Below are positions 2,591 through 62,171 of a stretch of DNA of 64,000 bases, piece after piece; within the stretch, counting starts at the first letter, position 1, and each line of letters starts with the position of its first letter. This DNA is from a virus. Lineage: Duplodnaviria > Heunggongvirae > Uroviricota > Caudoviricetes. Location of the stretch: the IMG/VR virus record IMGVR_UViG_3300031417_000403, positions 187,133-251,132 of that record, one strand, 5' to 3'. A program made the translations under genes and the position numbers. The notes under the pieces were generated by a model. It saw nothing but the letters and a program-made list of their open reading frames with translations, ran no database searches and had not been told where the DNA came from.

Positions 2591-2598
2591 GGTATAAT
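2591..2598 (+). promoter_or_regulatory. promoter -10 (ggtataat); exact repeat of the 1755 cassette
   Basis: identical 36-mer. Confidence 0.55.
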
Positions 2599-2625
2599 GA
2601 ACCCATCAACTACGGAGAATCAAAC

Positions 2626-16616: not shown

Positions 16617-16747
16617 CCGAAGAAGACGATCTGATGGACCCAGATTATCTGGACCATCTGTACATGTGCTATCTCGAAGCCGGCGGAGAAGGTGAGCCAA
16701 TGAACTTCGACGAATGGCTGGAAGAACACAAAAGAGAGAACCAATGA
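16613..16747 (+). CDS. small acidic protein (44 aa)
   Basis: ATGA overlaps. Confidence 0.3.
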   Translation: MTEEDDLMDPDYLDHLYMCYLEAGGEGEPMNFDEWLEEHKRENQ

Positions 16748-19506: not shown

Positions 19507-20856
19507 ATGAATTTTGTAGAAGTCCTCAAAGAAGCCGAAGCCGCGAATGGTGCTGGCACCAAGAAAGCAATCCAAGCTGCGCTGGCGAAACTCGATCCGA
19601 CAGGCCGCGCGCTGATGCGCTATGCCATGGACCCGTATAAAGTCTTCGGCGTCAAGAAGTTCGATCGTCCTGCAAGCTACGCGCAGCAAGACCCCGCCGA
19701 TATTTCCCCGCTGTTCCAATTGCTCGACGACCTGGCCGACCGCAATCTGACTGGCGACGCAGCACGTGGTGCAGTTTCCCAAGCACTGTCGAACTTCACC
19801 GAAGAAACCGCAGCATACATCGAACGCGTGATCGACAAAGACCCGCGCGCCGGCTTCTCTGCCGATACCTTCAACAAGGTATGGAAAGACGACGAGACCA
19901 TCCCAACGTTCGAAGTCATGCTCGCCGACAAGTGCGAAGACACTGACGACTTCGAAAAGAACGTCACGTTCCCGTGTCTCGCCGACGTCAAGTACGACGG
20001 CCAACGTACCATCGCGCTCGTCCGCCTCGGCCGTCCGGTCGAATATCGTGCACGCTCCGGCAAAGAGATGGATCACCTTGCCGGCCTGTTCGACGCTGAA
20101 CTGCTGCTGATCCGCAACATCGTAGGCTACGACTTCGTGATGGACGGCGAATCGTTCGCATCGGACTTCACCGAAACCATCAACGCCAAGAAGACCGGCA
20201 ACGACAAAGCGAAAGCCAACCTGAAGCTGCACTGCTTCTTCATGATGCCACTGACGCACTGGATCGCGCAGAAGACCGACATCACGATGGAAGCCAATCG
20301 TCTGGCACTCGAAGAACTGCTGCCGCAAGTCCGCGCCAAGCTGAACCTCGATCAAGACGCACTGGGCGAAGCTGTTCAAGTCGAACCGAAAGTCATTCTG
20401 ACCGACAGCGCGATCGTCAACAACTACGCCGAGATGACCGCTCGCTGCAATCACGTCATCGATGACCTGAAGCAAGAAGGTCTGATCCTGAAAGAACTGC
20501 AGGCCGTCTACACCTGGGACCGTTCGTTTGCATGGTGCAAAGTGAAACGCTTCTACGACGTCGACGCCCGCATCGTAGGCTTCTACGCTGGTCGTCCGAA
20601 GACCCGTCTGGCCGATACCGTCGGCGGTGTCAACTGCGTGGCATTCCTCGAATCCGGCGAACGCGTCGAGTTCAACGTCGGTTCCGGCTTCAGCGACGAC
20701 GATCGTGCCGACATGAAAGCCAATCCGGAAAAATGGCTGAAGGCAACTGTCGTCATCAAGTATCAAGACGTCACGCGCTCGAAGAGCAAGGCCGTCGCAT
20801 CGCTGCGCTTCTGCACGTTCGAACGTATCCGCGACGACAAGCTGGTGGAAATCTAA
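19507..20856 (+). CDS. ATP-dependent DNA ligase
   Basis: motif I CLADVKYDGQR (KxDGxR), III FVMDGE, IV EGLILK, V WCKVKRFY; 449 aa. Confidence 0.9.
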   Translation: MNFVEVLKEAEAANGAGTKKAIQAALAKLDPTGRALMRYAMDPYKVFGVKKFDRPASYAQQDPADISPLFQLLDDLADRNLTGDAARGAVSQALSNFTEETAAYIERVIDKDPRAGFSADTFNKVWKDDETIPTFEVMLADKCEDTDDFEKNVTFPCLADVKYDGQRTIALVRLGRPVEYRARSGKEMDHLAGLFDAELLLIRNIVGYDFVMDGESFASDFTETINAKKTGNDKAKANLKLHCFFMMPLTHWIAQKTDITMEANRLALEELLPQVRAKLNLDQDALGEAVQVEPKVILTDSAIVNNYAEMTARCNHVIDDLKQEGLILKELQAVYTWDRSFAWCKVKRFYDVDARIVGFYAGRPKTRLADTVGGVNCVAFLESGERVEFNVGSGFSDDDRADMKANPEKWLKATVVIKYQDVTRSKSKAVASLRFCTFERIRDDKLVEI

Positions 20857-21641: not shown

Positions 21642-21827
21642 GTGAAACTGTATGACTTCTCCGTTTACGCCGCCAGGCGAGACGCGATGCGAAAAGAGAA
21701 AGCTGCTGCCGCACGCGTTGTGGAGGTGATGGACCATATTGAAGAACCCGGTTCCATAAAGCAACTCAAGCATTGTGTCGATGATTGGTTCACTTTACAT
21801 AGGAACGTTATAGAACACCAAGCATAA
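21642..21827 (+). CDS. hypothetical protein (61 aa, GTG start)
   Basis: strong RBS aaggagggg before GTG. Confidence 0.45.
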   Translation: MKLYDFSVYAARRDAMRKEKAAAARVVEVMDHIEEPGSIKQLKHCVDDWFTLHRNVIEHQA

Positions 21828-22690
21828 TGAAACCAAAATATATCAGAGTCCTTTCGGACCTACACTTGGAACAACTACTCGGTCAACGAGAGGAATTCTT
21901 AGCTAACAGCTTTGTACCGCCCGATCCACGCGACTCGGAAAGCGTACTTGTTCTTGCTGGTGACATCAGCTCGAAACCCGCACAACTCATTCCTTTCCTG
22001 GGCTGGCTCAAAGACCGGTTCATGCGAGTCATCTACATTCCAGGCAACCACGAATACTACGGCCACGAGTTTGCTTCGTGGGAACGTGCTGTTACTGAAG
22101 CACTCAAAGAAGCACCCAATATCAAATTCTGTGGCAACGATGTTGCTGTCGAGGAATTTGAAGGCGTCCGCTTCATCTTCGGTACTCTGTGGGGCGATGG
22201 TGGATCGACGCTTGCTGAACACGCAGACATCGGCCGCTACTTGAACGACTTCCGTCTTGCACGTGTTGGCGACAAGAAATTCACTGTCGCCGATATGAAA
22301 ACGATGTATCGTTCGCAGAAGAGCAAGATCAAAGCATTGCTGGAAACTCCGTTCGACGGCAAGACCGTTGTCGCGACCCATCACATGCCATCGTACCAAC
22401 TTTGCCATCCACGTTTCGGTGGCGCAATCAACGGTGGCTTCGCTTCGCACAGCGATGATTTGATGGGCGGTGAACACGCACCAGCAGTTTGGATTCACGG
22501 CCACACTCACGATACGATCGACCGCATTCTGCATGGTTGCCGCGTCGTCTGCAATCCATCGGGCTATCGTCAAGAGTACGGCACCATCTTCAATCTGTTC
22601 GGGCCGAAGTTCATCACGATCGAAAACATGCAGTACGTTGAGCCAGTGAAACCGATGTGGCATGCAACCCCGGAGAAAGTCAGTGAATAA
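21827..22690 (+). CDS. calcineurin-like metallophosphoesterase
   Basis: motifs RVLSDLH, LAGD, GNHEYY, GHTH; 287 aa. Confidence 0.8.
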   Translation: MKPKYIRVLSDLHLEQLLGQREEFLANSFVPPDPRDSESVLVLAGDISSKPAQLIPFLGWLKDRFMRVIYIPGNHEYYGHEFASWERAVTEALKEAPNIKFCGNDVAVEEFEGVRFIFGTLWGDGGSTLAEHADIGRYLNDFRLARVGDKKFTVADMKTMYRSQKSKIKALLETPFDGKTVVATHHMPSYQLCHPRFGGAINGGFASHSDDLMGGEHAPAVWIHGHTHDTIDRILHGCRVVCNPSGYRQEYGTIFNLFGPKFITIENMQYVEPVKPMWHATPEKVSE

Positions 22691-22700
22691 TGTGATTGAC

Positions 22701-23099
22701 ATGTTCAATCCAAAGAAGCCTCGGGAAGCTCCGCCTTCCATCGAGGCTCTTGCCGTACGTTGCACTGACCTTATCAATGAAAACTGGGAACGCTTCGCTC
22801 GCAACAATCGACTCAACGATTACTTTCTGTCATGCGTTCCATTGTGGGCGATGCCACAGCTGAACTATCTCTCAGACCTCAATGGCGTTTCGACAATTGA
22901 AAACAAACTCGGATTGTCGGTCGTCGTCAACGCGCCTGGAACATCACCATCATCGAAGCTCGGCTGGGTTGCCGGCTTCGAAATCAAAGGAGTGAAAGTC
23001 GAAACTCCAGTGATGATGTGTGAAGCGTACGCCAGGTGTTTCAACATTCTCCTTTTCCTCAAGCTGTCGCGCGAACTGACAAATCACGGCATCAACTGA
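22701..23099 (+). CDS. hypothetical protein (132 aa)
   Basis: ORF track, first ATG after upstream stop. Confidence 0.45.
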   Translation: MFNPKKPREAPPSIEALAVRCTDLINENWERFARNNRLNDYFLSCVPLWAMPQLNYLSDLNGVSTIENKLGLSVVVNAPGTSPSSKLGWVAGFEIKGVKVETPVMMCEAYARCFNILLFLKLSRELTNHGIN

Positions 23100-23134
23100 A
23101 ATGTTGGCGTGCAAGCAACATTGCGCGTGATAGA

Positions 23135-23674
23135 ATGCTTTCCATGCTAATCTTCTATAAAGAACTAACGATAGAAGAAGGTTTCGAAGTCCTCGAGAAA
23201 ACAAAGTACGACCGTCTTGTTGGCGGCCGACAAGTATCTCAATGCTCGGGCTGGAATCTTTTTCAAACATACAAAGGCAAACCAATCACGTGTTGGAAGT
23301 GCGGATGCGCTGCCGACCGATGGATTGCTGATCGTGGGCCGAAGCACATGGGAAATCCAGTGCTCAATTTGTACGGCATGCGATACGGCGAGTTGGTGCT
23401 GATGAATCGTGACCACATCATTCCAAAATCTTTGGGCGGTGTTGATGTTAACGAAAATCTGCGGCCTGCATGCGAAGTTTGTAACGGCGGACGCGGCAAC
23501 ACGCTGACGCCAGAAGACTTGCAATTCCGAAAGGATCATCCCGAGTTGATCAGCGAGCATCGACTCGAAGAAGGAAAGAAGTCTGCGCGCAAAGCAATCA
23601 AAGCGCACGAAGGACATCCGGAAGAACAAGCACGAATTGCATTGCCATTCGAAATGATTGGCGAACCACTTTAA
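23135..23674 (+). CDS. HNH homing endonuclease
   Basis: CWKCGC...NRDHIIPKSLGG...NLRPACEVCN HNH/zinc-finger motifs; promoter-like tagaatgctttcc overlaps start. Confidence 0.75.
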   Translation: MLSMLIFYKELTIEEGFEVLEKTKYDRLVGGRQVSQCSGWNLFQTYKGKPITCWKCGCAADRWIADRGPKHMGNPVLNLYGMRYGELVLMNRDHIIPKSLGGVDVNENLRPACEVCNGGRGNTLTPEDLQFRKDHPELISEHRLEEGKKSARKAIKAHEGHPEEQARIALPFEMIGEPL

Positions 23675-23684
23675 AGGAAATACC

Positions 23685-25088
23685 ATGGGACAACCAACAC
23701 AAGAAATCGCACAAGGCGGCTGGAAAGCTGAAGCTCTGAAAGACGGCATTGTCGTTACCAACGAAGAAGAAATGCAGGCATATCTTGAAGCTGATGCAAC
23801 TGCAGCCGAACAAGCTGAAGTGCTGCGTCGCCAACAACTCGTCGACGAAGCTGTGGCAGACGGCCGCAAGCTGGTGACTGTTCGTCAAATCACTTCGATC
23901 GAAGATATTCCTGGCGCCGACCTGATCAAGAAAGCAATGGTCGAAGGCTGGCCAGTCGTCGTAAAAGCCGGCGAGTTCAAAGTTGGCGACCTGTGCGTCT
24001 TCTTCGAGGTCGACTCGTACCTGCCAATGTCGGACGAACGTTTCAAGTTCCTCGAAAAGAACGCCATCAACTGGAACGACATTCCAGGTGCACGACTGAA
24101 AACGATTCGCCTGCGCAAGCAGCTGTCGCAAGGCCTCGCACTTCCGCTCGATGCGTTCCCGGAAATCATCGATCATCTGATCGGCCTGGGAATCGGGAAA
24201 AGCGAAGTCGAAAAAATTCGCGACATCAACTTCACTGGCCTGCTCGGCATCATGAAGTGGGACAAGCCTGTCAACGCACAACTGGCTGGCATGGCGAAGG
24301 GTAACTTCCCAACGTTCCTCCGCAAGTCGGACCAAGAACGTTGCCAGAACATGGGCTCGCAAATCTTCGGCTACGATGAAACCTTCTCGCCGGTTCCGGC
24401 AGAAGCCGTCGCTGCAATGTCGCAAGAAGACAAGGACGCCGCAATCGCTGCTGGTCGTATGCGCATGACCGGCGATGTACTGCAGTTCGTCCGTCCGCCG
24501 CAAGCAAGCCGCGACACTCGTTACGAAGTCACGCTGAAAATGGACGGCAGTTCGATGACCGTGTATCGTTACGGTGCCGGCGGCGAACCGCTGGAAGGCG
24601 TGTGCTCGCGTAACCTCGATCTGAAGATGGAAGGCAACGACGACAACGCCTTCGTGCAGATGGCGAACAGCGGTATTCTGCAAGTGCTGCGAAGCGTCGG
24701 TCAAGACATCGCACTTCAAGGCGAGCTGATGGGTCCTGGTATCCAAGGCAACCGCGAAGGTTTCAAGACCAATCGCTTCTTCGTCTACAACATCTTCGAC
24801 ATCGACAAAGGCGAGTTCATGACTCCGCGCGAGCGCAAGTCGCTGGTGGCAAAGATGAACAGCATTGCCCGCGTCGAGAACATCAACGTCGTGATCGAGC
24901 ATGTTCCGACCCTGCACTTTGGCGTCACGCTCGAAGAACTGGGCATCAAGAACATGGACGAACTGCTGCAGTTCGCCATTGGCCCAAGCATGAACAACAA
25001 CGTGCGTGAAGGCCTGGTGTTCAAAGCAATGGACGGTTCGCACCAGTTCAAGGCCATCAGCAACCTGTACCTCGAACAAGAAAAATGA
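23685..25088 (+). CDS. ATP-dependent RNA ligase (Rnl-type nucleotidyltransferase with N-terminal extension)
   Basis: motif I TLKMDGSS (KxDG), IV EGLVFK, V FKAISNLY; RBS aaaggaaatacc; 467 aa. Confidence 0.7.
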   Translation: MGQPTQEIAQGGWKAEALKDGIVVTNEEEMQAYLEADATAAEQAEVLRRQQLVDEAVADGRKLVTVRQITSIEDIPGADLIKKAMVEGWPVVVKAGEFKVGDLCVFFEVDSYLPMSDERFKFLEKNAINWNDIPGARLKTIRLRKQLSQGLALPLDAFPEIIDHLIGLGIGKSEVEKIRDINFTGLLGIMKWDKPVNAQLAGMAKGNFPTFLRKSDQERCQNMGSQIFGYDETFSPVPAEAVAAMSQEDKDAAIAAGRMRMTGDVLQFVRPPQASRDTRYEVTLKMDGSSMTVYRYGAGGEPLEGVCSRNLDLKMEGNDDNAFVQMANSGILQVLRSVGQDIALQGELMGPGIQGNREGFKTNRFFVYNIFDIDKGEFMTPRERKSLVAKMNSIARVENINVVIEHVPTLHFGVTLEELGIKNMDELLQFAIGPSMNNNVREGLVFKAMDGSHQFKAISNLYLEQEK

Positions 25089-34794: not shown

Positions 34795-35649
34795 ATGAGT
34801 TCGAATACCGCTAAAAGCCCCAACGTCCTGCTGTATGGTATTGCAGGTCTCGTCATCATCGCCATCGCCACGTTCTTCCTCGTGTGGCTGTTGGCCATGC
34901 GAACCGAGACCGTGGAACCCGGCCACGAGCTGGTCATCATCGACAAGCCGTACTTCTTCGGCTCCAGCGGTGTACGCGATGAAACCCTGAAGCAAGGTCG
35001 TATTCTGCTGTTCCGAACGTCGGACGTCGAGCCGGTACGAATGACACCGCAATCATACAACGTCAAGTTCGACGACCTGTCGTCGGCAGACAACATCTTG
35101 CTGGACTTCGAATCCACGATCCAGTTCAAGATTACCGACGCGAAAGTGCTGGTGAGCAAGTTCGGATCGAAGGATTGGTTCGTCAACAACTTGCAACGCC
35201 AATACATGTCGATCGTGCGCGAGGCTGTCAAGAAGGAAACCATGACGGACATGATGTCCAATGCTGAAACGTCGACACGTGTTGACACCTACGTTACCGA
35301 TGCGCTGCAAAAGCTCGTGGCGGAAAGCAAGTTGCCAATCGCGATTCTCGGCGTTACGCTGGGTCGTGCGAAGCCGAACGACAACGTCTTGCTGCAGATG
35401 AACGAGACCGCTGCTCAACAGCAACGTAACAAGACGTTGATCGCCGCGACCGCTGCAGAAGAACAACGTGCGAAAGAGCAGACCGCAAAGGCCGCAGCTG
35501 ACAACGCGTACCGTAACGCGCTGGGCATGAACAGCGAGCAGTTCATCCAACTCGAAGCCATCAAGCGTTACTCCGAAGCCTGTGCCAAGTCGGAACGCTG
35601 CATCGTGACTCCGGGCATGGGCACCAACGTGCTGGTAACTGGAAAGTAA
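34795..35649 (+). CDS. SPFH/band-7 (stomatin/HflK-like) membrane protein
   Basis: N-terminal TM, SPFH core, Ala/Gln/Glu-rich coiled-coil tail. Confidence 0.65.
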   Translation: MSSNTAKSPNVLLYGIAGLVIIAIATFFLVWLLAMRTETVEPGHELVIIDKPYFFGSSGVRDETLKQGRILLFRTSDVEPVRMTPQSYNVKFDDLSSADNILLDFESTIQFKITDAKVLVSKFGSKDWFVNNLQRQYMSIVREAVKKETMTDMMSNAETSTRVDTYVTDALQKLVAESKLPIAILGVTLGRAKPNDNVLLQMNETAAQQQRNKTLIAATAAEEQRAKEQTAKAAADNAYRNALGMNSEQFIQLEAIKRYSEACAKSERCIVTPGMGTNVLVTGK

Positions 35650-38333: not shown

Positions 38334-39149
38334 ATGAAGAAGCTGTTTGTTACTCTGTTGTGGATGATTTCAGCGACGTGTTCTGCCGCGAAGTTCAACT
38401 CACAGTCAGTGTTCGTTATTGAAGACGGTGGTCAAGTGTTGTTCGAAAAACAACCTGACCTCGTCAGCCCAATCGCGTCACTGACAAAACTCATGACTGC
38501 AATGGTAGTGCTGGACGCACATCAGAACATGCAGGAAATAATTACGATTCAACAGTCTGATGTCGATGAAATCAAGCACAGCATGTCACGTGTTCGTGTT
38601 GGTTGGCAGATGACACGAGCAGAGGCGTTGGAACTCGCGCTGATGCACTCCGACAACAGAGCTGCAACTGCACTGGGCAGAACGTATCCAAGCGGACTAC
38701 CAGCATTCCAAGAAGCAATGCGAGCGAAAATCGCAGCATTGGGACTTCGCGGAACATCGATTGTAGAACCATCCGGACTCTCGCCAAGCAATGTATCCAC
38801 CGCACGTGATCTTGCCATCATCGCAATAGCGGCATCAGCATATCCAGACATCACCCGCATCACCACGACCGAATTGGTTCAAATCCACGGTACAAATTTC
38901 AAGAACACCAACAGATTAGTTGGCGCAAACGGCTGGGACATTCGTCTGTCAAAGACTGGTTACATCGAAGAATCAGGTCGATGCTTTGTCATGAGAATCG
39001 TCGCTGCTGGTAAAACTGCAACCATCGTCTTGCTCAATGCTGGATCGAGTTCAGCTCGCATGCAAGATGCGTGGACAATCCGTCGCGCAATCACTGGCGA
39101 ACCCTCACCGAAGCCGCAGAAGCACAAGAAGAAAAAGCGTCGCAAATAG
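38334..39149 (+). CDS. D-alanyl-D-alanine carboxypeptidase/endopeptidase (low-MW PBP, S11 family), secreted
   Basis: signal peptide; SxxK SLTK, SxN HSDN, KTG LSKTG motifs; TAG stop. Confidence 0.75.
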   Translation: MKKLFVTLLWMISATCSAAKFNSQSVFVIEDGGQVLFEKQPDLVSPIASLTKLMTAMVVLDAHQNMQEIITIQQSDVDEIKHSMSRVRVGWQMTRAEALELALMHSDNRAATALGRTYPSGLPAFQEAMRAKIAALGLRGTSIVEPSGLSPSNVSTARDLAIIAIAASAYPDITRITTTELVQIHGTNFKNTNRLVGANGWDIRLSKTGYIEESGRCFVMRIVAAGKTATIVLLNAGSSSARMQDAWTIRRAITGEPSPKPQKHKKKKRRK

Positions 39150-45117: not shown

Positions 45118-45290
45118 TCGTTCCATACATTCTCACGATGGTGTTTACCGTCGGCATGAGCCAAGGTGGTGTGGCAACCCTGAAGGTCGAGTACAACTCG
45201 CAGGCCACATGCAACGCCGCCATGGAAGCAAACCGTGAAAGTCTGCGTGGTCAGGCTTCGATCGTACTCGCAACCTGCACGAAAAAATAA
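45114..45290 (+). CDS. small secreted/hydrophobic protein (GTG start, uncertain)
   Basis: ORF track. Confidence 0.3.
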   Translation: MIVPYILTMVFTVGMSQGGVATLKVEYNSQATCNAAMEANRESLRGQASIVLATCTKK

Positions 45291-45300
45291 GGAAATCAAC

Positions 45301-46530
45301 ATGTCGAAATCTATCGCAGTTATCGGCGCCGGTTATGGCGACGAAGGCAAAGGCCTTGCAACCGACTTCTTCTCGCGTCACTACAATGCAGCCATGGTGG
45401 CTCGCGGCAATGGTGGCGCACAAGCTGGTCACACTGTCGTCGATGGCGATAAGCGACATGTCTTCGGCCACGTCGGCTCCGGCGCGTTCGCTGGTGTTCC
45501 AACGTATCTGAGTTCCGGCTTCATCGCGAATCCGTACATGCTCAATCGTGAGCTGAAAGAACTCGGCACTCGCCAACGCGTCTACATCTCGCCCAACAGC
45601 CGCGTCACCACGTACTACGACATGGCCATCAACTCGCTGATCGAAATCAAGCGCGGTGCGGCACGTCATGGTTCGTGCGGCATGGGCATCAACGAGACCG
45701 TCACGCGTGATCTGGCCGGCTACCATCTCGACATGGCAACCATCAAAGGCAGCGAGTTCGGTATCGCACAAGCCCTGCAGAAAATTCGCGGTCAATGGGT
45801 TCCGAAGCGTATGCAGGAACTCGGCCTGAACAAAGCTGACTTCGAAGGCAACGAAGACGCAATGCGTTTCTTCGAGTACTTCGACGAAACCCAAACGCAA
45901 GTCGAAGACCTGATGCACTATGGCGACATCATGTCGCTGCAGAATCCGAAGTTGTTCCTTGGACAAGATGATGTCGTGGTCGTCGAAGGCGCACAAGGCC
46001 TGATGCTCGACGAATTCCTTGGCGACTTCCCGCACGTCACGCGTTCCGTTACTGGTCTCGCATCGTCGATCCGCGCTGCAGCTGAATGCGGTCGCACGTC
46101 GATCCGTCCAGTGTACATGACTCGTTCGTACGCGACGCGTCACGGTGCCGGCGAACTGCTGTACGAAGGCGCAACCATCACCGACAAAGAACTGGTCGAC
46201 AAGACCAACGTCGACAACCAATGGCAAGGCTCGATCCGTTACGCTCCGCTGAATCTGCATGCGCTCGCATGGTATATCCGCGAAGACATGAAGCGTGGCC
46301 AACACGTTGCACAGCTGTTCGGTGTCGAGGTTCTTCAGCCGAAGCTGTTTGTGACCTGCCTCGACCAACTCGACGAGCACGTGACGATCGTCACCCGCAA
46401 CAAGGACATGCTCAAGCTGAAGTCGGTGAAGCTGCTGGCGTACATCGAAAAAGTCATGGGCATCGAAGTCTGTGCTGCATCGTACGGTCCGTCGGCTGCT
46501 GATGTTCAACTCCTCCACGAAGTACTGTAA
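45301..46530 (+). CDS. purA: adenylosuccinate synthetase (PurA-like; PurZ not excluded)
   Basis: P-loop GYGDEGKG, GGAQAGHTV, EGAQGLMLDEFLGDFPHVTRS match PurA motifs; 409 aa. Confidence 0.75.
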   Translation: MSKSIAVIGAGYGDEGKGLATDFFSRHYNAAMVARGNGGAQAGHTVVDGDKRHVFGHVGSGAFAGVPTYLSSGFIANPYMLNRELKELGTRQRVYISPNSRVTTYYDMAINSLIEIKRGAARHGSCGMGINETVTRDLAGYHLDMATIKGSEFGIAQALQKIRGQWVPKRMQELGLNKADFEGNEDAMRFFEYFDETQTQVEDLMHYGDIMSLQNPKLFLGQDDVVVVEGAQGLMLDEFLGDFPHVTRSVTGLASSIRAAAECGRTSIRPVYMTRSYATRHGAGELLYEGATITDKELVDKTNVDNQWQGSIRYAPLNLHALAWYIREDMKRGQHVAQLFGVEVLQPKLFVTCLDQLDEHVTIVTRNKDMLKLKSVKLLAYIEKVMGIEVCAASYGPSAADVQLLHEVL

Positions 46531-49362: not shown

Positions 49363-49438
49363 GCCTCGTTAGCTCAACTGGCAGAGTGGCGGTCTCTAAA
49401 ACCGAGGGTTGCGGGTTCGATCCCCGCACGGGGCACCA
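49363..49438 (+). tRNA. amber suppressor tRNA, anticodon CUA (tRNA-Trp-like anticodon arm), CCA encoded
   Basis: cloverleaf: acceptor gcctcgt/acggggc, anticodon arm gcggt CTCTAAA accga, T-arm gcggg ttcgatc cccgc. Confidence 0.7.
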
Positions 49439-56978: not shown

Positions 56979-57091
56979 TAATCAAAGCGTACTCTTGTAG
57001 TCCCGTCCATCAGGACGACCCGAATCGCGTGGACAAAGGGAACTCAATGAGTTTAGTGTAAGCAGCACACTTGAGTGCGCTTTGATTATGG
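56976..57091 (+). repeat. 14-bp inverted repeat (ccataatcaaagcg/cgctttgattatgg) bridging the 3' end of one tRNA and the 5' end of the next
   Basis: arms overlap CCA of upstream tRNA and first G residues of downstream tRNA; ~88-nt interior with hairpins. Confidence 0.45.
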
Positions 57092-57160
57092 GGTGTTTAC
57101 AGGGGTAGGCGCTGCACTTGCACTGCGGTAGGAGGGGTTCGAGTCCCCTACGCTCCACCA
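57090..57160 (+). tRNA. short tRNA-Ala-like (anticodon TGC, G3-U70), reduced D-arm, CCA encoded
   Basis: acceptor ggggtgt/acgctcc with G3-U70; anticodon arm ctgca cttgcac tgcgg; T-arm agggg ttcgagt cccct; only 71 nt. Confidence 0.45.
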
Positions 57161-57957: not shown

Positions 57958-58097
57958 GGAGTTGTAGGGAATTGGAAAACCCACGTAAACATCGATTGCA
58001 AATCTTTGTTGTTTCTACAACCGCTCGCTAATTGGTTATCCACTGTAAATGGCGCGCCTCTGGCTTAGGTAGGTTCGAATCCTACCCAACTCCACCA
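57958..58097 (+). tRNA. long tRNA-like gene A (140 nt): tRNA acceptor/D/T arms plus ~65-nt conserved insertion (ATTGGTTATCCACT-GTA-AAT)
   Basis: acceptor ggagttg/caactcc, D-arm ggg aattggaaaa ccc, T-arm gtagg ttcgaat cctac, CCA; interior paralogous to the 59423 and 61502 genes. Confidence 0.45.
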
Positions 58098-58105
58098 GAA
58101 TTCTT

Positions 58106-58179
58106 GCGGGTATAGCTCAATGGTAGAGCTGAAGCCTTCCAAGCTTAAGACTGGGGTTCGATTCCCCATACCCGCTCCA
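58106..58179 (+). tRNA. tRNA-Gly (anticodon TCC)
   Basis: acceptor gcgggta/tacccgc U73; loop cttccaa. Confidence 0.8.
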
Positions 58180-58284
58180 TCATTTAAGGTCTTTGACGGA
58201 CTAGTCATCCGCTGTGGCGAAATACCGGTAGACTGCTGGAAAAGTAGTTATACACGACTTCACCCTAAGACACTGGGTGTTGAA

Positions 58285-58375
58285 GCAGAGACCTCAAATG
58301 ATGGAACCGTTGTTAATTGGTTATCAGGTGAAATACTGGCTTCGGTCAGTTAGAGGGTGTCGAATCCGCTCAGAC
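58285..58375 (+). repeat. degenerate copy of the ATTGGTTATC insertion module
   Basis: gaaccgttgttaattggttatcaggtgaaatactgg...gggtgtcgaatcc. Confidence 0.35.
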
Positions 58376-58491
58376 CGTGAAAACGGTTGCCTCTCAGAGG
58401 ACATTACCGATTGACGCTTTTTGTTCCTCTCTTTTTCGAGTGTTGGTGAGCTGGACATTTTGTTACCCAGTCGAACACTCTTTTTAACAAT

Positions 58492-58570
58492 GCCCACGTA
58501 CGCAATTTGGCAAAGCGGCGATGCTCAAAACATCGTGATTCTGCCGGTTCGACTCCGGCCGTGGGTACCA
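58492..58570 (+). tRNA. tRNA with anticodon CAA but short variable arm (non-canonical for Leu)
   Basis: acceptor gcccacg/cgtgggt, anticodon arm cgatg ctcaaaa catcg, T-arm gccgg ttcgact ccggc. Confidence 0.5.
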
Positions 58571-58575
58571 ACAAT

Positions 58576-58658
58576 GCGCCAGTAGATAATGTGAATTGGT
58601 ACAACTGACTCGTTTAGAGCGAGTAACCTTGTGGGTTCGAGTCCCACCTGGCGCACCA
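58576..58658 (+). tRNA. tRNA with anticodon TAG, enlarged D region and short variable arm (non-canonical for Leu)
   Basis: acceptor gcgccag/ctggcgc, anticodon arm actcg tttagag cgagt, T-arm gtggg ttcgagt cccac. Confidence 0.5.
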
Positions 58659-58670
58659 AACAAAAGTGAT

Positions 58671-59126
58671 ATGAAGAATATAACCGATGAAATGCTGACT
58701 GAAGCAGTAGCAGCGAGCACGACGTTCCGCGAAGTGCTTCGCAAGCTCGGCATCAAAGAAGCAGGCGGATCGCACGGCCACTATACGCGTCGTGCTAAAA
58801 ACCTCGGTCTCGACATGAGTCACATGCTCGGTAAGTCTTCATCATCTGGTAAGATTAGCCACAAACGAAAATATGCTGCAGACATTCTTGTGAAGCGAGA
58901 AAGCGGCGGTCGAGCAAAAGCAGAACAGCTTGTCAGAAGTTTGTTGGAAATTGGTAGGAAACATGAGTGTGAGAAATGCGGACAACTGCCTGAATGGCAC
59001 GGTCATCCACTGACGCTTGACGTCGATCACATCAATGAAGATTGGCTGGACGATCGTGCTGAGAACTTGCGGTTCTTGTGCCCGAACTGCCATAGTCAGT
59101 TAAGCAGACGTTTGATTCAAAAATAA
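58671..59126 (+). CDS. HNH homing endonuclease
   Basis: LDVDHINEDWLDDRAENLRFLCPNCH. Confidence 0.7.
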   Translation: MKNITDEMLTEAVAASTTFREVLRKLGIKEAGGSHGHYTRRAKNLGLDMSHMLGKSSSSGKISHKRKYAADILVKRESGGRAKAEQLVRSLLEIGRKHECEKCGQLPEWHGHPLTLDVDHINEDWLDDRAENLRFLCPNCHSQLSRRLIQK

Positions 59127-59127
59127 A

Positions 59128-59170
59128 ATTCAGCTTGTCGAAGAACAGTGTATAATGCTTGCTCTTCGAC
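59128..59170 (+). promoter_or_regulatory. 12-bp hairpin (gcttgtcgaaga/tcttcgacaagc) with -10 gtgtataatgctt in its loop
   Basis: terminator-like stem with TATAATGCTT subclass promoter inside. Confidence 0.45.
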
Positions 59171-59191
59171 AAGCTTTGAGAATACTTAGTT

Positions 59192-59262
59192 GCGGGTAGG
59201 GCCTGGTCACCAGCAGGGTCTCATAAGCCTTCGCCATCACACGTTCGAATCGTGTACCCGCT
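59192..59262 (+). pseudogene. tRNA-like pseudogene (CAT anticodon loop, defective D-arm, no CCA)
   Basis: acceptor gcgggta/tacccgc, anticodon arm agggt ctcataa gcctt, T-arm cacg ttcgaat cgtg. Confidence 0.3.
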
Positions 59263-59422
59263 ACTAAGTGTTTTTAAGAATGCTCGGCCGTACTTAATGC
59301 GGCACGCTTGAAATGAAGCCACGCATGACTGCCCACCGCGAAAGCGGTGCAAGGAGGAAGGTTGTGGTAGCAAGCATCAGCGATGGATAGTGATCCATTA
59401 CGAACTGCTAGAGTTCGACAAT

Positions 59423-59553
59423 TGAGGTGTAGTGTAAGGGTTAGCACGCGAAAAACATCGATCGCGCATTTTTGTTCAGCAATGAACCGCCCTGTGATTG
59501 GTTATCCACTCATAAAGGCGAAGATCCGGTTCGAGTCCGGACGACCTCAGCCA
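59423..59553 (+). tRNA. long tRNA-like gene B (131 nt) with conserved insertion (ATTGGTTATCCACT-CAT-AAAGG)
   Basis: acceptor tgaggtg/gacctca, D-arm gtg taagggttag cac, T-arm tccgg ttcgagt ccgga, CCA; D-stem covaries with gene A. Confidence 0.45.
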
Positions 59554-59574
59554 AGTTTATTGTGAAGCTGTCAT

Positions 59575-59700
59575 CCAAAATAGTAACCGCTTGCTTATTG
59601 GTTATCTACTTTTACTATGATGAAAAACCGAGAGGGTTCGATTCCCTTAATGTGCAGTGGTCAAGGGCACAATTCCCGATAGCTACTTTTGTTGCTATTT
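59575..59700 (+). repeat. 5'-truncated degenerate copy of the long tRNA-like gene
   Basis: aaccgcttgcttattggttatctacttttactatg...gagggttcgattccctt. Confidence 0.35.
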
Positions 59701-59722
59701 TGAATGACAGTTTCTGTTTTAT

Positions 59723-59797
59723 CGGAGTGTAGTCCAGTGGTAGGTCGCATGGTTTGGGACCATGAACTCGCAGGTTCGATTCCTGCCACTCCGACCA
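59723..59797 (+). tRNA. tRNA-Pro (anticodon TGG), copy 1
   Basis: acceptor cggagtg/cactccg, anticodon arm catgg tttggga ccatg. Confidence 0.8.
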
Positions 59798-60165
59798 ATT
59801 TATGGAGGATGCTATGACATCGCTAAACGCAACAAGGGTCAACCACGTACGTCTGTAAACGGCGTCAGTAAGAAATTCAAACGGATGGCGGAGTTATACA
59901 AATACTTCGCTCGACATTGGACAGGGTTAGACTTCAGCGATGAAGCATTACTCGAAATGTTCAACAGCGAATCTTATGGCACGAGAGTGAATCCGAAAAA
60001 CGGATACCTCATCGGCAAAGGTTACTTGAACATGACAGTGACATCCTGGAAAGAAGACATTGCACTCGGCACCTTGTTTGTCAAGGAACTGTATGCTGAT
60101 GGAAATTTTCCAGAATGGTGGCTCGACGGAATCTTCCAAGATTCGCCGGGCTACAAAGATAGAAT
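59798..60165 (+). mobile_element. insertion between duplicated tRNA-Pro genes carrying one ORF (59884..60175)
   Basis: both copies begin atcggagtgtagtccagtggtaggtcg; the ORF ends with TAG inside copy 2. Confidence 0.4.
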
Positions 60166-60175
60166 CGGAGTGTAG
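59884..60175 (+). CDS. hypothetical protein (97 aa) carried on the inter-tRNA-Pro insertion
   Basis: first in-frame ATG after tRNA copy 1; TAG stop. Confidence 0.35.
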
Positions 60176-60240
60176 TCCAGTGGTAGGTCGTCTGGTTTGG
60201 GACCAGAAACTCGGGTGTTCGATTCACCCCACTCCGACCA
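60166..60240 (+). tRNA. tRNA-Pro (anticodon TGG), copy 2
   Basis: acceptor cggagtg/cactccg, anticodon arm tctgg tttggga ccaga. Confidence 0.8.
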
Positions 60241-60245
60241 ACTTA

Positions 60246-60321
60246 GGCGAGGTAGCTCAGCGATTAGAGCGGCCGTCATTGCGACGGAGGTACGGTGGTT
60301 CAAATCCACCCCTCGCCACCA
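60246..60321 (+). tRNA. atypical tRNA (probable anticodon TTG, with A33 and C37)
   Basis: acceptor ggcgagg/cctcgcc, anticodon region gccgt cattgcg acgga, T-arm ggtgg ttcaaat ccacc. Confidence 0.45.
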
Positions 60322-60355
60322 AGAATTCGCGTTGATAGACGTATAAATACCCTCT

Positions 60356-60862
60356 TTGAGGAGCGTCTATCAAATGGCAAGAAATAAAATTGAAGTAACG
60401 AAAGAACAAATTGAATGGGCTTTAACGCAAAGTAATTCTGCGAAAGCTGCTTCAGATGTGATAGGATTATCCTTTATGACGTTCAAGCGACGTTGTAAAG
60501 AGTTTGGCTTGTACGCACCGAATCAAGGTTTGAAAGGTACGAAGAAGCCAAATCCAAAGTGGGAGATTCCACTTGAAAAGATTTTCAGCAACGAACACTT
60601 CATGACTGGCGCTGCCATCAAGAAGAAAATGTTGAAAGCAGGATTATGGACCGACGAGTGTTCCGAATGCAAACAGCCGCCCATGTGGAACGGCAAGAAG
60701 CTAGTTTTGCAGGTAGATCATATCGACGGTGATAAAACGAACAACGCGCAATCCAACCTCAGATTGCTATGTCCAAACTGCCATACGCAGACACATACCT
60801 TTTCGAAGGGCAAGTTCAGAACCAAAGCGGTTGTGGCGGAACTGGTAGACGCGTTAGGTTGA
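60356..60862 (+). CDS. HNH homing endonuclease (3' end overlaps tRNA-Leu)
   Basis: LQVDHIDGDKTNNAQSNLRLLCPNCH. Confidence 0.7.
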   Translation: MRSVYQMARNKIEVTKEQIEWALTQSNSAKAASDVIGLSFMTFKRRCKEFGLYAPNQGLKGTKKPNPKWEIPLEKIFSNEHFMTGAAIKKKMLKAGLWTDECSECKQPPMWNGKKLVLQVDHIDGDKTNNAQSNLRLLCPNCHTQTHTFSKGKFRTKAVVAELVDALG

Positions 60863-60913
60863 GGGCCTAATGCCCGAAAGGGCGTGTGGGTTCGAGTCCC
60901 ATCATCCGCACCA
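60827..60913 (+). tRNA. tRNA-Leu (anticodon GAG)
   Basis: class II; anticodon arm ttagg ttgaggg cctaa; variable tgcccgaaagggcg. Confidence 0.75.
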
Positions 60914-61103
60914 GAATATGGTGTAAGAACTTGTTCATGTGCGAGTACGTGTAACTGCCATCAGTCCGGTTATGCTTCCGACGCCTTGACTGTTCAACAG
61001 AGGACTAGTGCGGTACAATGGGAAATGCATAGGTTGGTAGCCGTCGCATATACTCCTCGTACTCAGGAGAATCTGATTGAGACAACATGAACAAACGAAC
61101 AAT

Positions 61104-61178
61104 GTCGCGTTAGCCCAGTGGTAAGGTCACGGATTGCAAATCCGATGTTCGGGGGTTCGATTCCCTCACGCGACTCCA
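61104..61178 (+). tRNA. tRNA-Cys (anticodon GCA)
   Basis: acceptor gtcgcgt/acgcgac U73; loop ttgcaaa. Confidence 0.75.
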
Positions 61179-61184
61179 AGTTTG

Positions 61185-61250
61185 ACAACCGACATGCATT
61201 GGTTATCTCGGAAAAATCTCCGATGCAAACTCTTTTGTTGTCATATAATT
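61185..61250 (+). repeat. degenerate ATTGGTTATC module fragment
   Basis: caaccgacatgcattggttatctcggaaaaatctccgatgc. Confidence 0.35.
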
Positions 61251-61252
61251 AT

Positions 61253-61354
61253 GCAGTGCCCATTGTCTGGGTGTAATGTCAGTCTGGTAGACGGCCTTGT
61301 TTGGAACGAGGAGGGCGCTGGTTCAAATCCAGCCACCCAGACAATGGGCACTGC
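61253..61354 (+). repeat. 21-bp perfect inverted repeat (gcagtgcccattgtctgggtg / cacccagacaatgggcactgc) enclosing a tRNA-like core
   Basis: inner 7 bp of each arm form the acceptor stem of the enclosed tRNA-like gene. Confidence 0.5.
61267..61341 (+). tRNA. tRNA-Pro-like (TGG loop) embedded in a 21-bp extended stem, no CCA
   Basis: acceptor ctgggtg/cacccag, anticodon arm ccttg tttggaa cgagg, T-arm gctgg ttcaaat ccagc. Confidence 0.4.
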
Positions 61355-61418
61355 GAATGAGTAAGTCCACATGAGATGACGCGTCGTCTCTTAACGGGTA
61401 TTGCCGGGTGGCAACTAT

Positions 61419-61493
61419 GCAGGTGTAGCTCAGCGGTAGAGTCTTTCGTTGCCAACGAAAATGTCGAGGGTTCGAATCCCTTCACCTGCTCCA
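61419..61493 (+). tRNA. tRNA-Gly (anticodon GCC)
   Basis: acceptor gcaggtg/cacctgc U73; arm tttcg ttgccaa cgaaa. Confidence 0.8.
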
Positions 61494-61501
61494 GTTTTAA
61501 T

Positions 61502-61638
61502 GTAGAGGTAGCTCAGTCTGGCAGAGCGACCGCCTCGTCGAAAGACACCTGTTTGCGCAACTTGTTGACAAACGTCAACCGAATGTGAATAGTTATCCAA
61601 GCAGTATGTCGTAGGTTCGAATCCTACCCTCTACACCA
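61502..61638 (+). tRNA. long tRNA-like gene C (137 nt) with variant insertion (AATAGTTATCCAAGCAGTATG)
   Basis: acceptor gtagagg/cctctac, D-arm gctc agtctggc agagc, T-arm gtagg ttcgaat cctac, CCA; internal hairpin gttgac aaac gtcaac. Confidence 0.45.
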
Positions 61639-61701: not shown

Positions 61702-61787
61702 GCGGGTATAGCTCAGATGGTAGAGCACTTGACTTCCAATCAAGAGGCGAATAGTTTACGCAGGTTCGAATCCTGTTACCCGCTCCA
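61702..61787 (+). tRNA. tRNA-Gly (anticodon TCC) with ~11-nt insertion in variable region
   Basis: acceptor gcgggta/tacccgc U73, arm cttga cttccaa tcaag, variable aggcgaatagtttacg. Confidence 0.6.
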
Positions 61788-62096: not shown

Positions 62097-62171
62097 CCCG
62101 AGGTAGCTCAGCGGTAGAGCAGGCTCCGTTATGGGAGCTGTGCGCTGGTTCGAATCCAGCCCTTAGGCCCA
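62097..62171 (+). tRNA. atypical tRNA (C3-A70 mismatch; 6- or 8-nt anticodon loop gttatg; TAT/Ile candidate)
   Basis: acceptor cccgagg/ccttagg, stem gctcc/ggagc enclosing gttatg, T-arm gctgg ttcgaat ccagc. Confidence 0.4.

What the first reader, a model, noticed from the sequence alone, without database searches (positions are those of the whole stretch)
57958..61638. Family of 131-140-nt tRNA-like genes with a conserved ~60-nt internal insertion (motif ATTGGTTATC): candidate intron-containing tRNAs or a new ncRNA family
Three genes (57958-58097, 59423-59553, 61502-61638) each have a valid acceptor stem, D-arm, T-arm and CCA. Between the D-arm and T-arm each carries homologous extra sequence: cg(t/a)aaacatcgat..tttgtt, then a covarying hairpin (gttg tttcta caac in A, gttc agcaat gaac in B), then (a/g)attggttatccact-NNN-aa(a/t)ggcg. 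The variable triplets sit in anticodon-loop-like contexts: ctGTAaa in gene A and ctCATaa in gene B. The D-stems also covary between A and B (ggg/ccc versus gtg/cac). At least three degenerate copies of the module lie nearby (58285, 59575, 61185). Standard bacterial group I tRNA introns are much larger. Several RNA ligases and an HD-domain enzyme are encoded in this window, which invites the question of a phage-encoded tRNA splicing or maturation route.
Basis: seen in the sequence. Interest (0 to 1): 0.85.

Follow-up and report, generated by a model that had tools for sequence, protein, structure and literature searches.

The report
Phage tRNA genes carrying Y-RNA modules
The "introns" in these three phage tRNA-like genes are most likely the stem that binds the Ro60 protein in bacterial and phage Y RNAs, so the genes are a rearranged form of known tRNA-mimicking Y RNAs rather than spliced tRNAs.

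Summary
Genes A (57958-58097), B (59423-59553) and C (61502-61638) are tRNA-shaped, end in CCA, and carry a homologous 54-60-nt insert. The insert folds into two helices around a conserved internal loop. On 14 homologues, 97.8% of cells pair, 5 pairs show compensatory changes, and 0 of 500 shuffles do as well.

The three "degenerate copies" are intact. They hold the same module in circularly permuted order.

The intron reading is not supported. The module matches the Ro60/Rsr-binding module of YrlA-type Y RNAs:
- an outer helix
- an NCG(AA) motif
- a second helix
- a conserved UUAUC
- a YUUGUU strand

Eight of the 119 viral loci fetched only for ATTGGTTATC plus a T-loop encode full-length Ro60 (TROVE plus vWA). 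In 79 phage Ro60 loci, GGTTAYC occurs 305 times on the Ro60 strand and 55 times on the other. Rfam's YrlA model aligns end to end with relatives, below its threshold.

Ordinary phage YrlAs have the same anticodon stem split at 28/29. A-C differ in topology: the acceptor end is open and the Ro60 stem is capped. Six Ro60 loci hold this form too.

No Ro60 gene was found in this phage lineage, so the partner is inferred. Verdict: new variant of a known kind.

The parts
57958..58097 (+). Gene A: a tRNA-ended Y RNA-like gene. It has a class II Tyr-type body, anticodon loop ctGTAaa and an encoded CCA. The anticodon stem is split as cg (57984-57985) plus cca (58040-58042), pairing with tggcg.
   Evidence: Sequence; covariance model R1 hit at 64.2 bits; orthologues in L337, L335, L269 and L136.
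57986..58039 (+). Ro60-type module inside A. In order: linker TAAAC; helix P1 5' strand ATCGATTGC (57991-57999); loop AAATCTTT; capped helix P2 GTTG/CAAC (58008-58021); CG motif (58022-58023); P1 3' strand G(C)TAATTGGT (58027-58036); then TAT.
   Evidence: Alignment A2 and pair counts; comparison with the Rfam YrlA consensus.
59423..59553 (+). Gene B: a tRNA-ended Y RNA-like gene with loop ctCATaa and an encoded CCA. The module lies at 59451-59505: P1 is ATCGATCGC / GTGATTGGT and P2 is GTTC agcaat GAAC.
   Evidence: R1 hit at 64.7 bits; relatives in L275/L267, L323 and L326.
61502..61638 (+). Gene C: a tRNA-ended Y RNA-like gene with the module (61537-61596) in the anticodon loop, between ctc and ccaa. 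P1 is CCTGTTTGC / GTGAATAG and P2 is GTTGAC aaac GTCAAC. It has the motif AACCGAAUG, the best match in the window to GNCGAAN0-1G.
   Evidence: Rfam tRNA hit at 50.2 bits with a 64-nt insertion; R1 hit at 47.8 bits; relatives in L325, L338, L274, L187 and L323.
58303..58427 (+). RNA D: a Y RNA in the ordinary topology. The outer helix is ggaac / gttcc. It reads AACCG, then P1 ttgttaATTGG / CCGATTGAC, then UUAUC. The inner domain of about 80 nt holds a degenerate T-arm-like element and two hairpins.
   Evidence: architecture read by eye against the YrlA consensus.
59569..59709 (+). RNA E: a Y RNA in the ordinary topology. It has a 19-bp outer stem, AACCG, and P1 gcttATTGG / CCGATAGC. The inner tRNA-like domain has a T arm (59632-59648) followed directly by a D arm (59652-59670), with no acceptor stem.
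   Evidence: It aligns collinearly (68% mean column identity) with the Y RNA that ends about 130 nt upstream of the Ro60 gene in L424, and with E-type RNAs in L323, L325, L136 and L137.
61183..61243 (+). RNA F: a minimal, YrlB-like Y RNA placed right after tRNA-Cys. The outer stem is tgacaac / gttgtca. It reads CG, then P1 catgcATTGG / CCGATGC capped by a 17-nt loop, then J3 aaactcTTTT.
   Evidence: homologues follow tRNAs in L137; a similar minimal Y RNA lies directly upstream of Ro60 in L424.

Best explanation
A, B and C are Y RNA-like noncoding RNAs of the YrlA kind: a tRNA mimic joined to a Ro60/Rsr-binding stem. They are built in a circularly permuted order.

In ordinary YrlA, the RNA ends sit in the Ro60-binding stem and the 'acceptor' stem is closed by a loop. 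In A-C the acceptor stem is open, like a real tRNA with an encoded CCA. The Ro60-binding stem is closed by a small hairpin and projects from the anticodon arm.

D, E and F are ordinary-topology Y RNAs from the same set.

Likely mechanism (inferred from the family, not shown here):
- The RNAs are cut out of the tRNA-array transcript by the tRNA end-processing enzymes.
- They fold into an L-shaped tRNA-like body.
- The module binds a ring-shaped Ro60 protein, encoded either elsewhere in the 375-kb phage genome or by the host.
- The tRNA-like part acts as the tether or gate that links Ro60 to other factors such as PNPase. This is how YrlA, Yrn1 and the Thermus phage phiLo Yrl RNAs are described.

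The insert is not removed.
For: Structure:
- The insert is a conserved two-helix module. On 14 homologues, 97.8% of cells pair, 5 of 13 pairs show changes on both sides, and 0 of 500 shuffles match this. Slid controls pair in 57% of cells or fewer.

One module, three topologies:
- It is inserted in tRNAs (A-C and about 30 distinct relatives).
- It stands alone (F).
- It closes a tRNA-like domain (D, E).

Link to Ro60:
- Of the 119 viral loci fetched only for ATTGGTTATC plus GGTTCGA, 8 encode a full-length Ro60 (29-38% identity to human Ro60, E 1e-41 to 1e-113).
- Pfam confirms TROVE plus vWA_Ro60 in four such proteins.
- In 79 phage Ro60 loci, GGTTA[TC]C occurs 305 times on the Ro60 strand against 55 on the other. 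In 181 cases a T-loop follows, and the sites shown lie within about 2 kb upstream of Ro60, most of them within 1 kb.

Match to YrlA:
- Rfam YrlA (RF02553) aligns over positions 1-114 of 114 to two relatives in L232, at 34 bits and E 7e-6 in a 421-nt search.
- Its consensus maps onto the module part by part: outer helix to P2, the gCGAAUG motif to AACCG(AAUG), helix 2 to P1, the conserved UA to UUAUC, and AcUuGu to YUUGUU.
- L121, whose YrlA lies 70 nt upstream of Ro60, reads AACCGAAG...ATTGGTTATC and so bridges the two forms.
- Ordinary phage YrlAs show the same 28/29 split anticodon stem-loop as A and B, for example L346.

The tRNA-ended form at Ro60 loci:
- It occurs 0.15-0.7 kb from Ro60 in L420 (R1 hit at 30.8 bits, E 2e-4), L430, L452, L474, L486 and L138/L400.

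Precedent:
- M. smegmatis YrlA is cut by RNase P in its acceptor stem and receives CCA while bound to Rsr (PMC4201824).
- Phage phiLo Ro60 binds phage Y-like RNAs and host PNPase (PMC12135203).
Against: - No Ro60 gene lies in the 64-kb window, in the 10 kb downstream, or in 337 kb held from this phage lineage.
- The lineage's large IMG/VR contigs are absent from the Ro60-positive contigs that were listed. Two of those lists show only the best 80 of 379 and of 426 Ro60-positive stretches, and the third covers one peptide variant.
- The published motif GNCGAAN0-1G is only partly kept. AACCG is invariant, but CGAA survives only in C.
- No Rfam YrlA match in the window reaches the gathering score, and E gives no match at all.
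- The anticodon stems reassemble to exactly 5 bp with 7-nt loops, and C-type relatives keep NCC anticodons. Selection for decoding after splicing would also predict both features.
- Ro60 binding, transcription and RNA ends are all untested.
Confidence: 0.75

Rival explanations
1. Protein-dependent intervening sequences. The module is an intron signal: a nuclease cuts both linkers, and a phage RNA ligase seals the nick left in the anticodon stem (A, B) or loop (C), producing functional tRNAs. The permuted copies would then give circular RNAs.
For: - Exon ends reassemble into 5-bp anticodon stems with 7-nt loops in most of the roughly 30 genes.
- A and L335 differ by a compensatory change across the junction, at pair 28-42 (G-C to C-G).
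- C-type genes keep N-C-C anticodons.
- The window encodes an RNA ligase with an N-terminal OB domain, and an RlaP nucleotidyltransferase.
Against: - The same split stem occurs in ordinary Ro60-adjacent YrlAs. Characterised YrlAs are stable, unspliced, Ro60-bound RNAs (PMC4201824).
- Stand-alone modules such as F have nothing to splice.
- The distance from helix to junction varies: 4-11 nt on the 5' side, and 3 or 4 nt on the 3' side.
- I saw no bulge-helix-bulge motif, and no splicing endonuclease among the ORFs scanned.
- No insert-free orthologue was found.
- About 7 of 19 distinct loops carry A34, a non-U33 or C37.
- Near-identical bodies carry different anticodons: GTC against GTT, and CAT against CTT.
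Confidence: 0.1
2. The same module, but bound by a partner other than Ro60. Examples would be a phage RNA-repair enzyme, or tRNA-shaped decoys for host anticodon nucleases with the module serving as a handle.
For: - No Ro60 was found in this lineage.
- The CGAA motif is degenerate in five of the six window copies.
- The anticodon loops are diverse and tRNA-like (CAT, GTA, GTT, GTC, TAC, TTC, CTT, NCC), as expected if the loop is displayed to something that reads it.
- RNA ligase, RlaP, a metallophosphatase and an SPFH protein are encoded in the window.
Against: - E-type and F-type orthologues sit directly upstream of Ro60 in L424.
- Bona fide Ro60 loci show the same motif variability, for example GUCGUA, GUCGAU and GUCGCC in L431.
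- No candidate alternative binding protein was identified.
Confidence: 0.1
3. Self-cleaving or self-splicing ribozyme. The circularly permuted forms resemble the way hammerhead and twister ribozymes occur.
For: - Three topologies of one small fold.
- Conserved unpaired nucleotides (UUAUC, an A-rich linker, UUUGUU).
- F lies immediately 3' of a tRNA.
Against: - No match to any Rfam ribozyme family.
- No pseudoknot or known catalytic core.
- The association with Ro60 genes and the YrlA alignment explain the conservation.
Confidence: 0.03

Closest known systems
YrlA-type bacterial and phage Y RNAs (Rfam RF02553; Chen et al. 2014, PMC4201824; structure preprint 10.1101/312249)
   Same: - A modular design: a Ro60/Rsr-binding stem (outer helix, NCGAA-type motif, second helix, conserved UA) joined to a tRNA-like domain with T arm, D arm and acceptor-like stem.
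- The module emerges from the anticodon-stem position.
- They occur in phages, often several per locus and interspersed with tRNAs.
- Window RNAs D, E and F share the ordinary topology.
   Different: - A-C are circularly permuted: the RNA ends lie at a 7-bp acceptor stem with encoded CCA, and the Ro60 stem is capped by a 4-6-nt loop.
- A-C keep a complete anticodon stem-loop.
- The motif is AACCG(N) rather than GNCGAA.
- They are not within 4 kb of a Ro60 gene.
- They score below Rfam's gathering threshold.
[quoted passage not shown]
   Same: A Ro60-bound tRNA mimic with an open 7-bp acceptor stem and a CCA tail. This is functionally the nearest precedent for A-C.
   Different: In M. smegmatis this state arises by cleavage of a closed acceptor loop, which gives a two-piece RNA. 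In A-C it is encoded directly as a single piece, with CCA in the gene.
Thermus phage phiLo Ro60 with its Yrl1 and Yrl2 RNAs (PMC12135203)
   Same: Phage-encoded Y-like RNAs with a stem, an internal loop and a CGAA motif. They bind the phage Ro60 and recruit host PNPase.
   Different: The phiLo RNAs lie just upstream of the phage Ro60 gene. The parts of the paper I read do not describe a tRNA-like domain for them.
Intron-containing and circularly permuted tRNA genes of archaea and Cyanidioschyzon merolae (bulge-helix-bulge dependent; PMC3978253, PMC4090602)
   Same: tRNA genes interrupted in the anticodon arm, or arranged with the 3' half before the 5' half, with a structured element at the junction.
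   Different: - No bulge-helix-bulge motif.
- No splicing endonuclease seen.
- The element is a Ro60-type module also found without any exons.
- No evidence of excision.
Bacterial and phage group I introns in tRNA genes (PMC3984707)
   Same: An insertion in the anticodon region of a tRNA gene in a phage-type genome, with homing-type HNH genes nearby.
   Different: The insert is 54-60 nt against more than 200 nt. It has no P3-P9 core and no Rfam intron match. The insertion sites are 27/28 to 29/30 and 34/35.

Membership tests
YrlA / Y RNA-like (RF02553) | A stem carrying the Ro60-binding motif GNCGAAN0-1G on the strand that leads into the tRNA-like domain. | tested here: inconclusive
   All six window copies have an invariant AACCG at the equivalent position. 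Only C reads AACCGAAUG, which matches CGAAUG. Motif variability of the same kind is seen in genuine Ro60 loci.
YrlA / Y RNA-like (RF02553) | A tRNA-like domain with a T arm, a D arm with GG, and an acceptor-like stem. | tested here: met
   A-C have full cloverleaf elements. E has T and D arms but no acceptor stem. D is degenerate. F has none, which makes it YrlB-like.
YrlA / Y RNA-like (RF02553) | Encoded within about 4 kb of a Ro60/TROVE gene on the same strand. | tested here: not met
   No Ro60 lies in the window, in the 10 kb downstream, or in 337 kb of lineage sequence. Homologues elsewhere are adjacent to Ro60: L424, L121, L420, L430, L452 and L138/L400.
YrlA / Y RNA-like (RF02553) | Reaches the Rfam gathering score of 69 bits. 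| tested here: not met
   The window gives only partial hits of 24.7 and 18.3 bits at T arms, and none for E. Relatives in L232, L222 and L121 score 34-35 bits, with full-length alignments in L232 and L222.
YrlA / Y RNA-like (RF02553) | RNA ends in the Ro60-binding stem, with the acceptor-like stem closed by a loop. | tested here: not met
   Met for D, E and F. Not met for A, B and C, which have the opposite arrangement.
YrlA / Y RNA-like (RF02553) | Bound by Ro60/Rsr in vivo. | not testable with these tools
   Needs co-immunoprecipitation or a gel-shift assay.
Protein-spliced (bulge-helix-bulge) tRNA introns | Two 3-nt bulges separated by a 4-bp helix at the splice sites. | tested here: not met
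   Inspection of the junctions in A-C and about 30 relatives shows both junctions on one strand of a three-way junction, with linkers of 4-11 nt and 3-4 nt.
Group I tRNA introns | A conserved catalytic core, more than 200 nt, and a U before the 5' splice site. | tested here: not met
   The insert is 54-60 nt. There is no Rfam intron hit. The 5' exon ends in G or C.
tRNA (RF00005) | A contiguous cloverleaf detected by tRNA finders. | tested here: inconclusive
   Only C is found, at 50.2 bits with a 64-nt insertion. ARAGORN finds none of A-C.

The most novel reading that the evidence does not exclude
The Ro60-type module could double as an excisable element. After cleavage at the two linkers, a phage RNA ligase would reseal the anticodon arm, so that A-C mature into working tRNAs (Tyr, CAT-type and Gly-NCC). 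Ro60-adjacent permuted copies would then give circular tRNA-like RNAs. That would be the first protein-dependent tRNA splicing system in the bacterial or phage world, and it would tie Ro60 and Y RNAs to tRNA biogenesis.
Probability: 0.08. Interest if true: 0.9.

Novelty: new variant of a known kind. Interest (0 to 1): 0.5.

Why it matters
Y RNAs and Ro60 are conserved from bacteria to humans, yet it is still unclear what the tRNA-like half of bacterial Y RNAs does.

Three points follow from this finding:
- **A natural open-ended form.** Here the Ro60-binding stem is grafted into complete tRNA genes with a free CCA end and an anticodon loop. Ordinary phage YrlAs keep the same anticodon stem split at 28/29. 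Together these argue that YrlAs derive from tRNA genes. They also provide one-piece versions of the 'open acceptor plus CCA' state so far seen only after RNase P cleavage in M. smegmatis.
- **A testable question.** It becomes possible to ask whether such RNAs are aminoacylated, and whether they bring Ro60 to tRNA-binding machinery.
- **An annotation gap.** tRNA finders and Rfam's YrlA model miss this topology. Jumbo-phage tRNA arrays probably hide many Y RNAs that look like broken or intron-bearing tRNAs.

Tried and rejected
- **Viral pattern scans.** ATTGGTTATCCACT alone gave only chance hits. A scan with a wrong gap length was nearly all chance hits, although it showed stand-alone modules after tRNAs.
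- **D-loop idea.** ATTGGTTATC is also an ordinary tRNA D-loop sequence, which produced many false hits. I dropped the D-loop-mimic idea once helix P1 was supported by compensatory changes.
- **Alternative pairing** of AACCG or GACUGA with UGGUU. It fails in copies where P1 keeps pairing through compensatory changes (L232 M4, window C).
- **Bulge-helix-bulge, RNase P/Z-type and RNase III-type excision schemes.** None fits the junction geometry.
- **Ribozyme classes** (hammerhead, twister, pistol, hatchet, HDV-like, hairpin). No Rfam hit and no shared core.
- **Isolate phages.** No nucleotide relative of the region or of gene B in 50,697 records.
- **Bacterial and archaeal species genomes.** All 12 pattern matches were spurious.
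- **Insert-free orthologues.** None found.
- **Automated virtual splicing.** Too noisy when the 5' cut was left free, and the script crashed part-way. I read the junctions by eye instead.
- **An independent model built from canonical Ro60-adjacent modules permuted in silico.** MAFFT misaligned the 5' strand, so I did not build it.
- **Looking for Ro60 in this phage lineage.** tblastn and three contig lists gave nothing. This is not conclusive.
- **Literature searches** for phage tRNA introns, permuted tRNAs in phages, or tRNA-ended Y RNAs. Nothing relevant was found in the held library. The 2020 Annual Review on bacterial Ro60 was not available.

Full report
**1. The observation**

The window is part of a 375,421-bp contig from an ENA metagenome assembly. 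All genes lie on the + strand. From about 56 kb onward it holds a large tRNA array: 26 ARAGORN tRNAs, interspersed with HNH endonuclease ORFs.

Each has a 7-bp acceptor stem, a D arm, a T arm and an encoded CCA.
- ARAGORN reports none of the three.
- Rfam's tRNA model reports only C, at 50.2 bits with a 64-nt insertion in the anticodon arm.
- ATTGGTTATC occurs exactly five times, all on the + strand between 58.0 and 61.2 kb. No shuffle out of 100 reaches the observed count.
- A search for AACCG...(ATTGG/ATAG)TTATC finds exactly six sites in the tRNA array: A, D, B, E, F and C.

**2. Anatomy of the insert**

In A and B the insert splits the 5' strand of the anticodon stem between nt 28 and 29.
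- A reads ...ccc a cg | TAAAC...GGTTAT | cca ctGTAaa tggcg.
- B reads ...gcac g cg | AAAAAC...GGTTAT | cca ctCATaa aggcg.
- In C the insert lies in the anticodon loop: accgc ctc | ... | ccaa gcagt.

I aligned 14 homologues from this window and from IMG/VR contigs. The insert has five parts:
- helix P1, (C)ATCGATYGC paired with G-YRATTGGT, which brings the two junctions together
- an asymmetric internal loop, with nnnTTT(T) on the 5' side and CG plus 3-4 nt on the 3' side
- a short capped helix P2 (GTTG...CAAC)
- a 5' A-rich linker
- a 3' TAT(C) linker

Pair counting supports this structure:

| Measure | Result |
|---|---|
| Cells that pair | 97.8% |
| Pairs with changes on both sides | 5 of 13 |
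| Shuffles reaching the observed values | 0 of 500 |
| Pairing in slid controls | 57% or less |

A covariance model built from this alignment (R1) recovers A at 64.2 bits, B at 64.7 bits and C at 47.8 bits. It also finds about 30 distinct relatives in viral and metagenome contigs. A pattern scan of 185,579 bacterial and archaeal species genomes gave 12 matches, and none of them is a true copy by R1.

**3. One module, three topologies**

The 'degenerate copies' are intact modules in circularly permuted order.
- **F (61183-61243)** has P2 open and P1 capped by a 17-nt loop. It starts 5 nt after the CCA of tRNA-Cys.
- **E (59569-59709)** has a 19-bp open outer stem. Its P1 closes a domain made of a T arm followed directly by a D arm.
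- **D (58303-58427)** is similar, with a degenerate inner domain.

A second lineage (L232, L222, L209) carries arrays of such RNAs. Its junction reads GACTGA ... CGGTTATC ... CCGAT ... ACTTGTT. One member encloses a complete tRNA in 3'-half then 5'-half order, with a 7-bp acceptor stem closed by a 5-nt loop.

**4. What the module is**

It hit full-length orthologues (29-38% identity, E 1e-41 to 1e-113) in L121, L145, L183, L205, L206, L209, L222, L231 and L301.
- Eight of these nine lie among the 119 loci that had been fetched only because they contain ATTGGTTATC followed by GGTTCGA.
- Pfam confirms TROVE plus vWA_Ro60 in four such proteins.

Using six phage Ro60 sequences as the query, 379 IMG/VR stretches encode Ro60. 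In the 79 best new loci:
- GGTTA[TC]C occurs 305 times on the Ro60 strand and 55 times on the other strand.
- In 181 cases a T-loop follows within 160 nt.
- The sites shown lie within about 2 kb upstream of Ro60, most within 1 kb.

Rfam's YrlA model (RF02553) aligns over its full length (1-114) to two L232 RNAs, at 34 bits and E 7e-6 in a 421-nt search. This is below the gathering score of 69. The consensus is acggCgaAUGCuuggGgaaCUAcgcc ... ggcguAuGuucCccaaAaAcUuGucGccg. It maps onto my module as follows:

| YrlA consensus element | Module element |
|---|---|
| Outer helix | P2 |
| GNCGAAN0-1G motif of Chen et al. (PMC4201824) | End of P2 plus the CG loop |
| Second helix | P1 |
| Conserved UA (the kink in preprint 10.1101/312249) | UUAUC |
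| AcUuGu | YUUGUU |

Two loci bridge the window form and the canonical form.
- L121 has a YrlA 70 nt upstream of Ro60 that reads AACCGAAG...ATTGGTTATC.
- L424 has an E-type RNA with GGCCGAAGG...ATTGGTTATC and a minimal F-type RNA, about 130 nt and 40 nt upstream of Ro60. Its E-type RNA aligns collinearly with window E.

**5. Why this is not an intron**

Ordinary Ro60-adjacent YrlAs show the same split anticodon stem as A and B. L346 is an example...GGTTAC | CCA ctgttaa TGG ag ... D arm a ct | tatc CCGGTC. The anticodon stem interrupted at 28/29 is therefore a built-in feature of this RNA family. Characterised YrlAs are stable, Ro60-bound RNAs.

Further points against splicing:
- The junctions vary: 27/28, 28/29, 29/30 and 34/35, after TTAT or after TTATC.
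- The 5' linker is 4-11 nt long.
- I saw no bulge-helix-bulge motif.
- No insert-free orthologue exists in the held loci.
- About 7 of 19 distinct anticodon loops carry A34, a non-U33 or C37.
- Near-identical bodies carry different anticodons: GTC in L167 against GTT in L336, and CAT in B against CTT in L323.

Points that keep splicing alive at low probability:
- The stems reassemble to 5 bp with 7-nt loops.
- There is a compensatory change across the junction between A and L335.
- C-type genes keep NCC anticodons.
- The window encodes an RNA ligase (PF21189 OB domain plus PF09414) and an RlaP nucleotidyltransferase.

**6. What is new**

A-C have the opposite circular permutation from described YrlAs. 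The ends lie at the acceptor stem with an encoded CCA, and the Ro60 stem is capped.

This tRNA-ended form is not peculiar to this window. It lies 0.15-0.7 kb from Ro60 in:
- L420 (R1 hit at 30.8 bits, E 2e-4, about 0.6 kb upstream)
- L430, L452, L474 and L486
- L138/L400

The nearest precedent is M. smegmatis YrlA. RNase P cleaves it in its 7-bp acceptor stem, and it gains CCA while bound to Rsr. I found no description of the one-piece permuted form in the papers available to me. The 2020 review was not held.

**7. Mechanism and caveats**

- **Shown here:** the structure, the homology chain to YrlA, and the genomic association of the module with Ro60 across phages.
- **Inferred:** that window RNAs A-F bind a Ro60 protein and act as tether or gate RNAs. 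This is the role described for the RYPER complexes and for the phiLo Ro60-Yrl-PNPase complex.

The main weakness is that I found no Ro60 gene in this lineage.
- None lies in the window, in the 10 kb downstream, or in 337 kb of related sequence.
- The lineage's 340-370-kb IMG/VR contigs are absent from the Ro60-positive contigs that were listed. Those lists are incomplete.
- The CGAA part of the motif survives only in C. Genuine Ro60 loci show similar variability.

I therefore put the Y RNA reading at about 0.75 overall. Homology of the module to the YrlA Ro60-binding stem is more secure than Ro60 binding in this particular phage.

**8. Verdict**

The intron interpretation is not supported. The genes are a circularly permuted, tRNA-ended variant of a known ncRNA family. 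They sit beside three ordinary-topology members in a jumbo-phage tRNA array that standard tRNA and Rfam scans do not recognise.

Noticed in passing
window 49363-49438: A tRNA with a CTA anticodon (ARAGORN calls it 'Pyl'; Rfam tRNA 60.3 bits). It is an amber-suppressor-type tRNA set apart from the main array.
   Followed up: no
window 61702-61787: tRNA-Gly(TCC) carrying a 12-nt insertion in the variable region (Rfam alignment). The insertion is unrelated to the Y RNA module.
   Followed up: no
window 58671-59126, 60374-60862, 23036-23674: HNH endonuclease ORFs. Two of them sit between tRNA and Y RNA genes, which looks like free-standing homing endonucleases in the array.
   Followed up: partly
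window 16714-17754, 21827-22690, 23658-25088, 34795-35649: An RNA-repair-type gene set: an RlaP nucleotidyltransferase, a metallophosphatase, an RNA ligase with an N-terminal OB domain, and an SPFH/Band 7 protein. A separate ATP-dependent DNA ligase lies at 19507-20856.
   Followed up: partly
window 8414-8974 and 14578-15153: DNA polymerase III alpha domains (NTPase and finger) appear as separate short ORFs several kb apart, which suggests a split or interrupted gene.
   Followed up: no
window ~58438-58487: A terminator-like hairpin (gagtgtt...aacactc followed by TTTTT) immediately downstream of Y RNA D, inside the array.
   Followed up: no
window 449-1726, 45235-46530, 38334-39149: Auxiliary metabolic genes in a phage context: isocitrate lyase, adenylosuccinate synthetase and a D-Ala-D-Ala carboxypeptidase.
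   Followed up: no
L232 minus strand 1583-3180 (IMG/VR contig; Ro60 3-6 kb away in the related L222 and L209): An array of at least nine Y RNA modules in tandem with GACTGA...CGGTTATC...CCGAT...ACTTGTT junctions. One (2195-2335) encloses a complete tRNA in permuted order, with a 7-bp acceptor stem closed by a 5-nt loop and a reassembled anticodon stem cc+cac/gtggg.
   Followed up: partly
L346 768, L348 2602 and many other loci among L345-L423: Canonical phage YrlAs next to Ro60 keep a 7-nt anticodon-like loop on a stem split 2+3 by the Ro60 module (for example CCA ctgttaa TGG ag, with ct after the D arm). The 2014 paper labels a 'V' arm in its figures, and this may be the same hairpin. Whether this split stem has been noted before is unknown to me.
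   Followed up: partly
window 62097-62171, 57090-57160, 58576-58658: Oddly shaped tRNA calls in the array: a two-base 'anticodon', a 71-nt Ala with an unusual anticodon position, and an 83-nt Val. They could be further non-standard tRNA-like RNAs.
   Followed up: no
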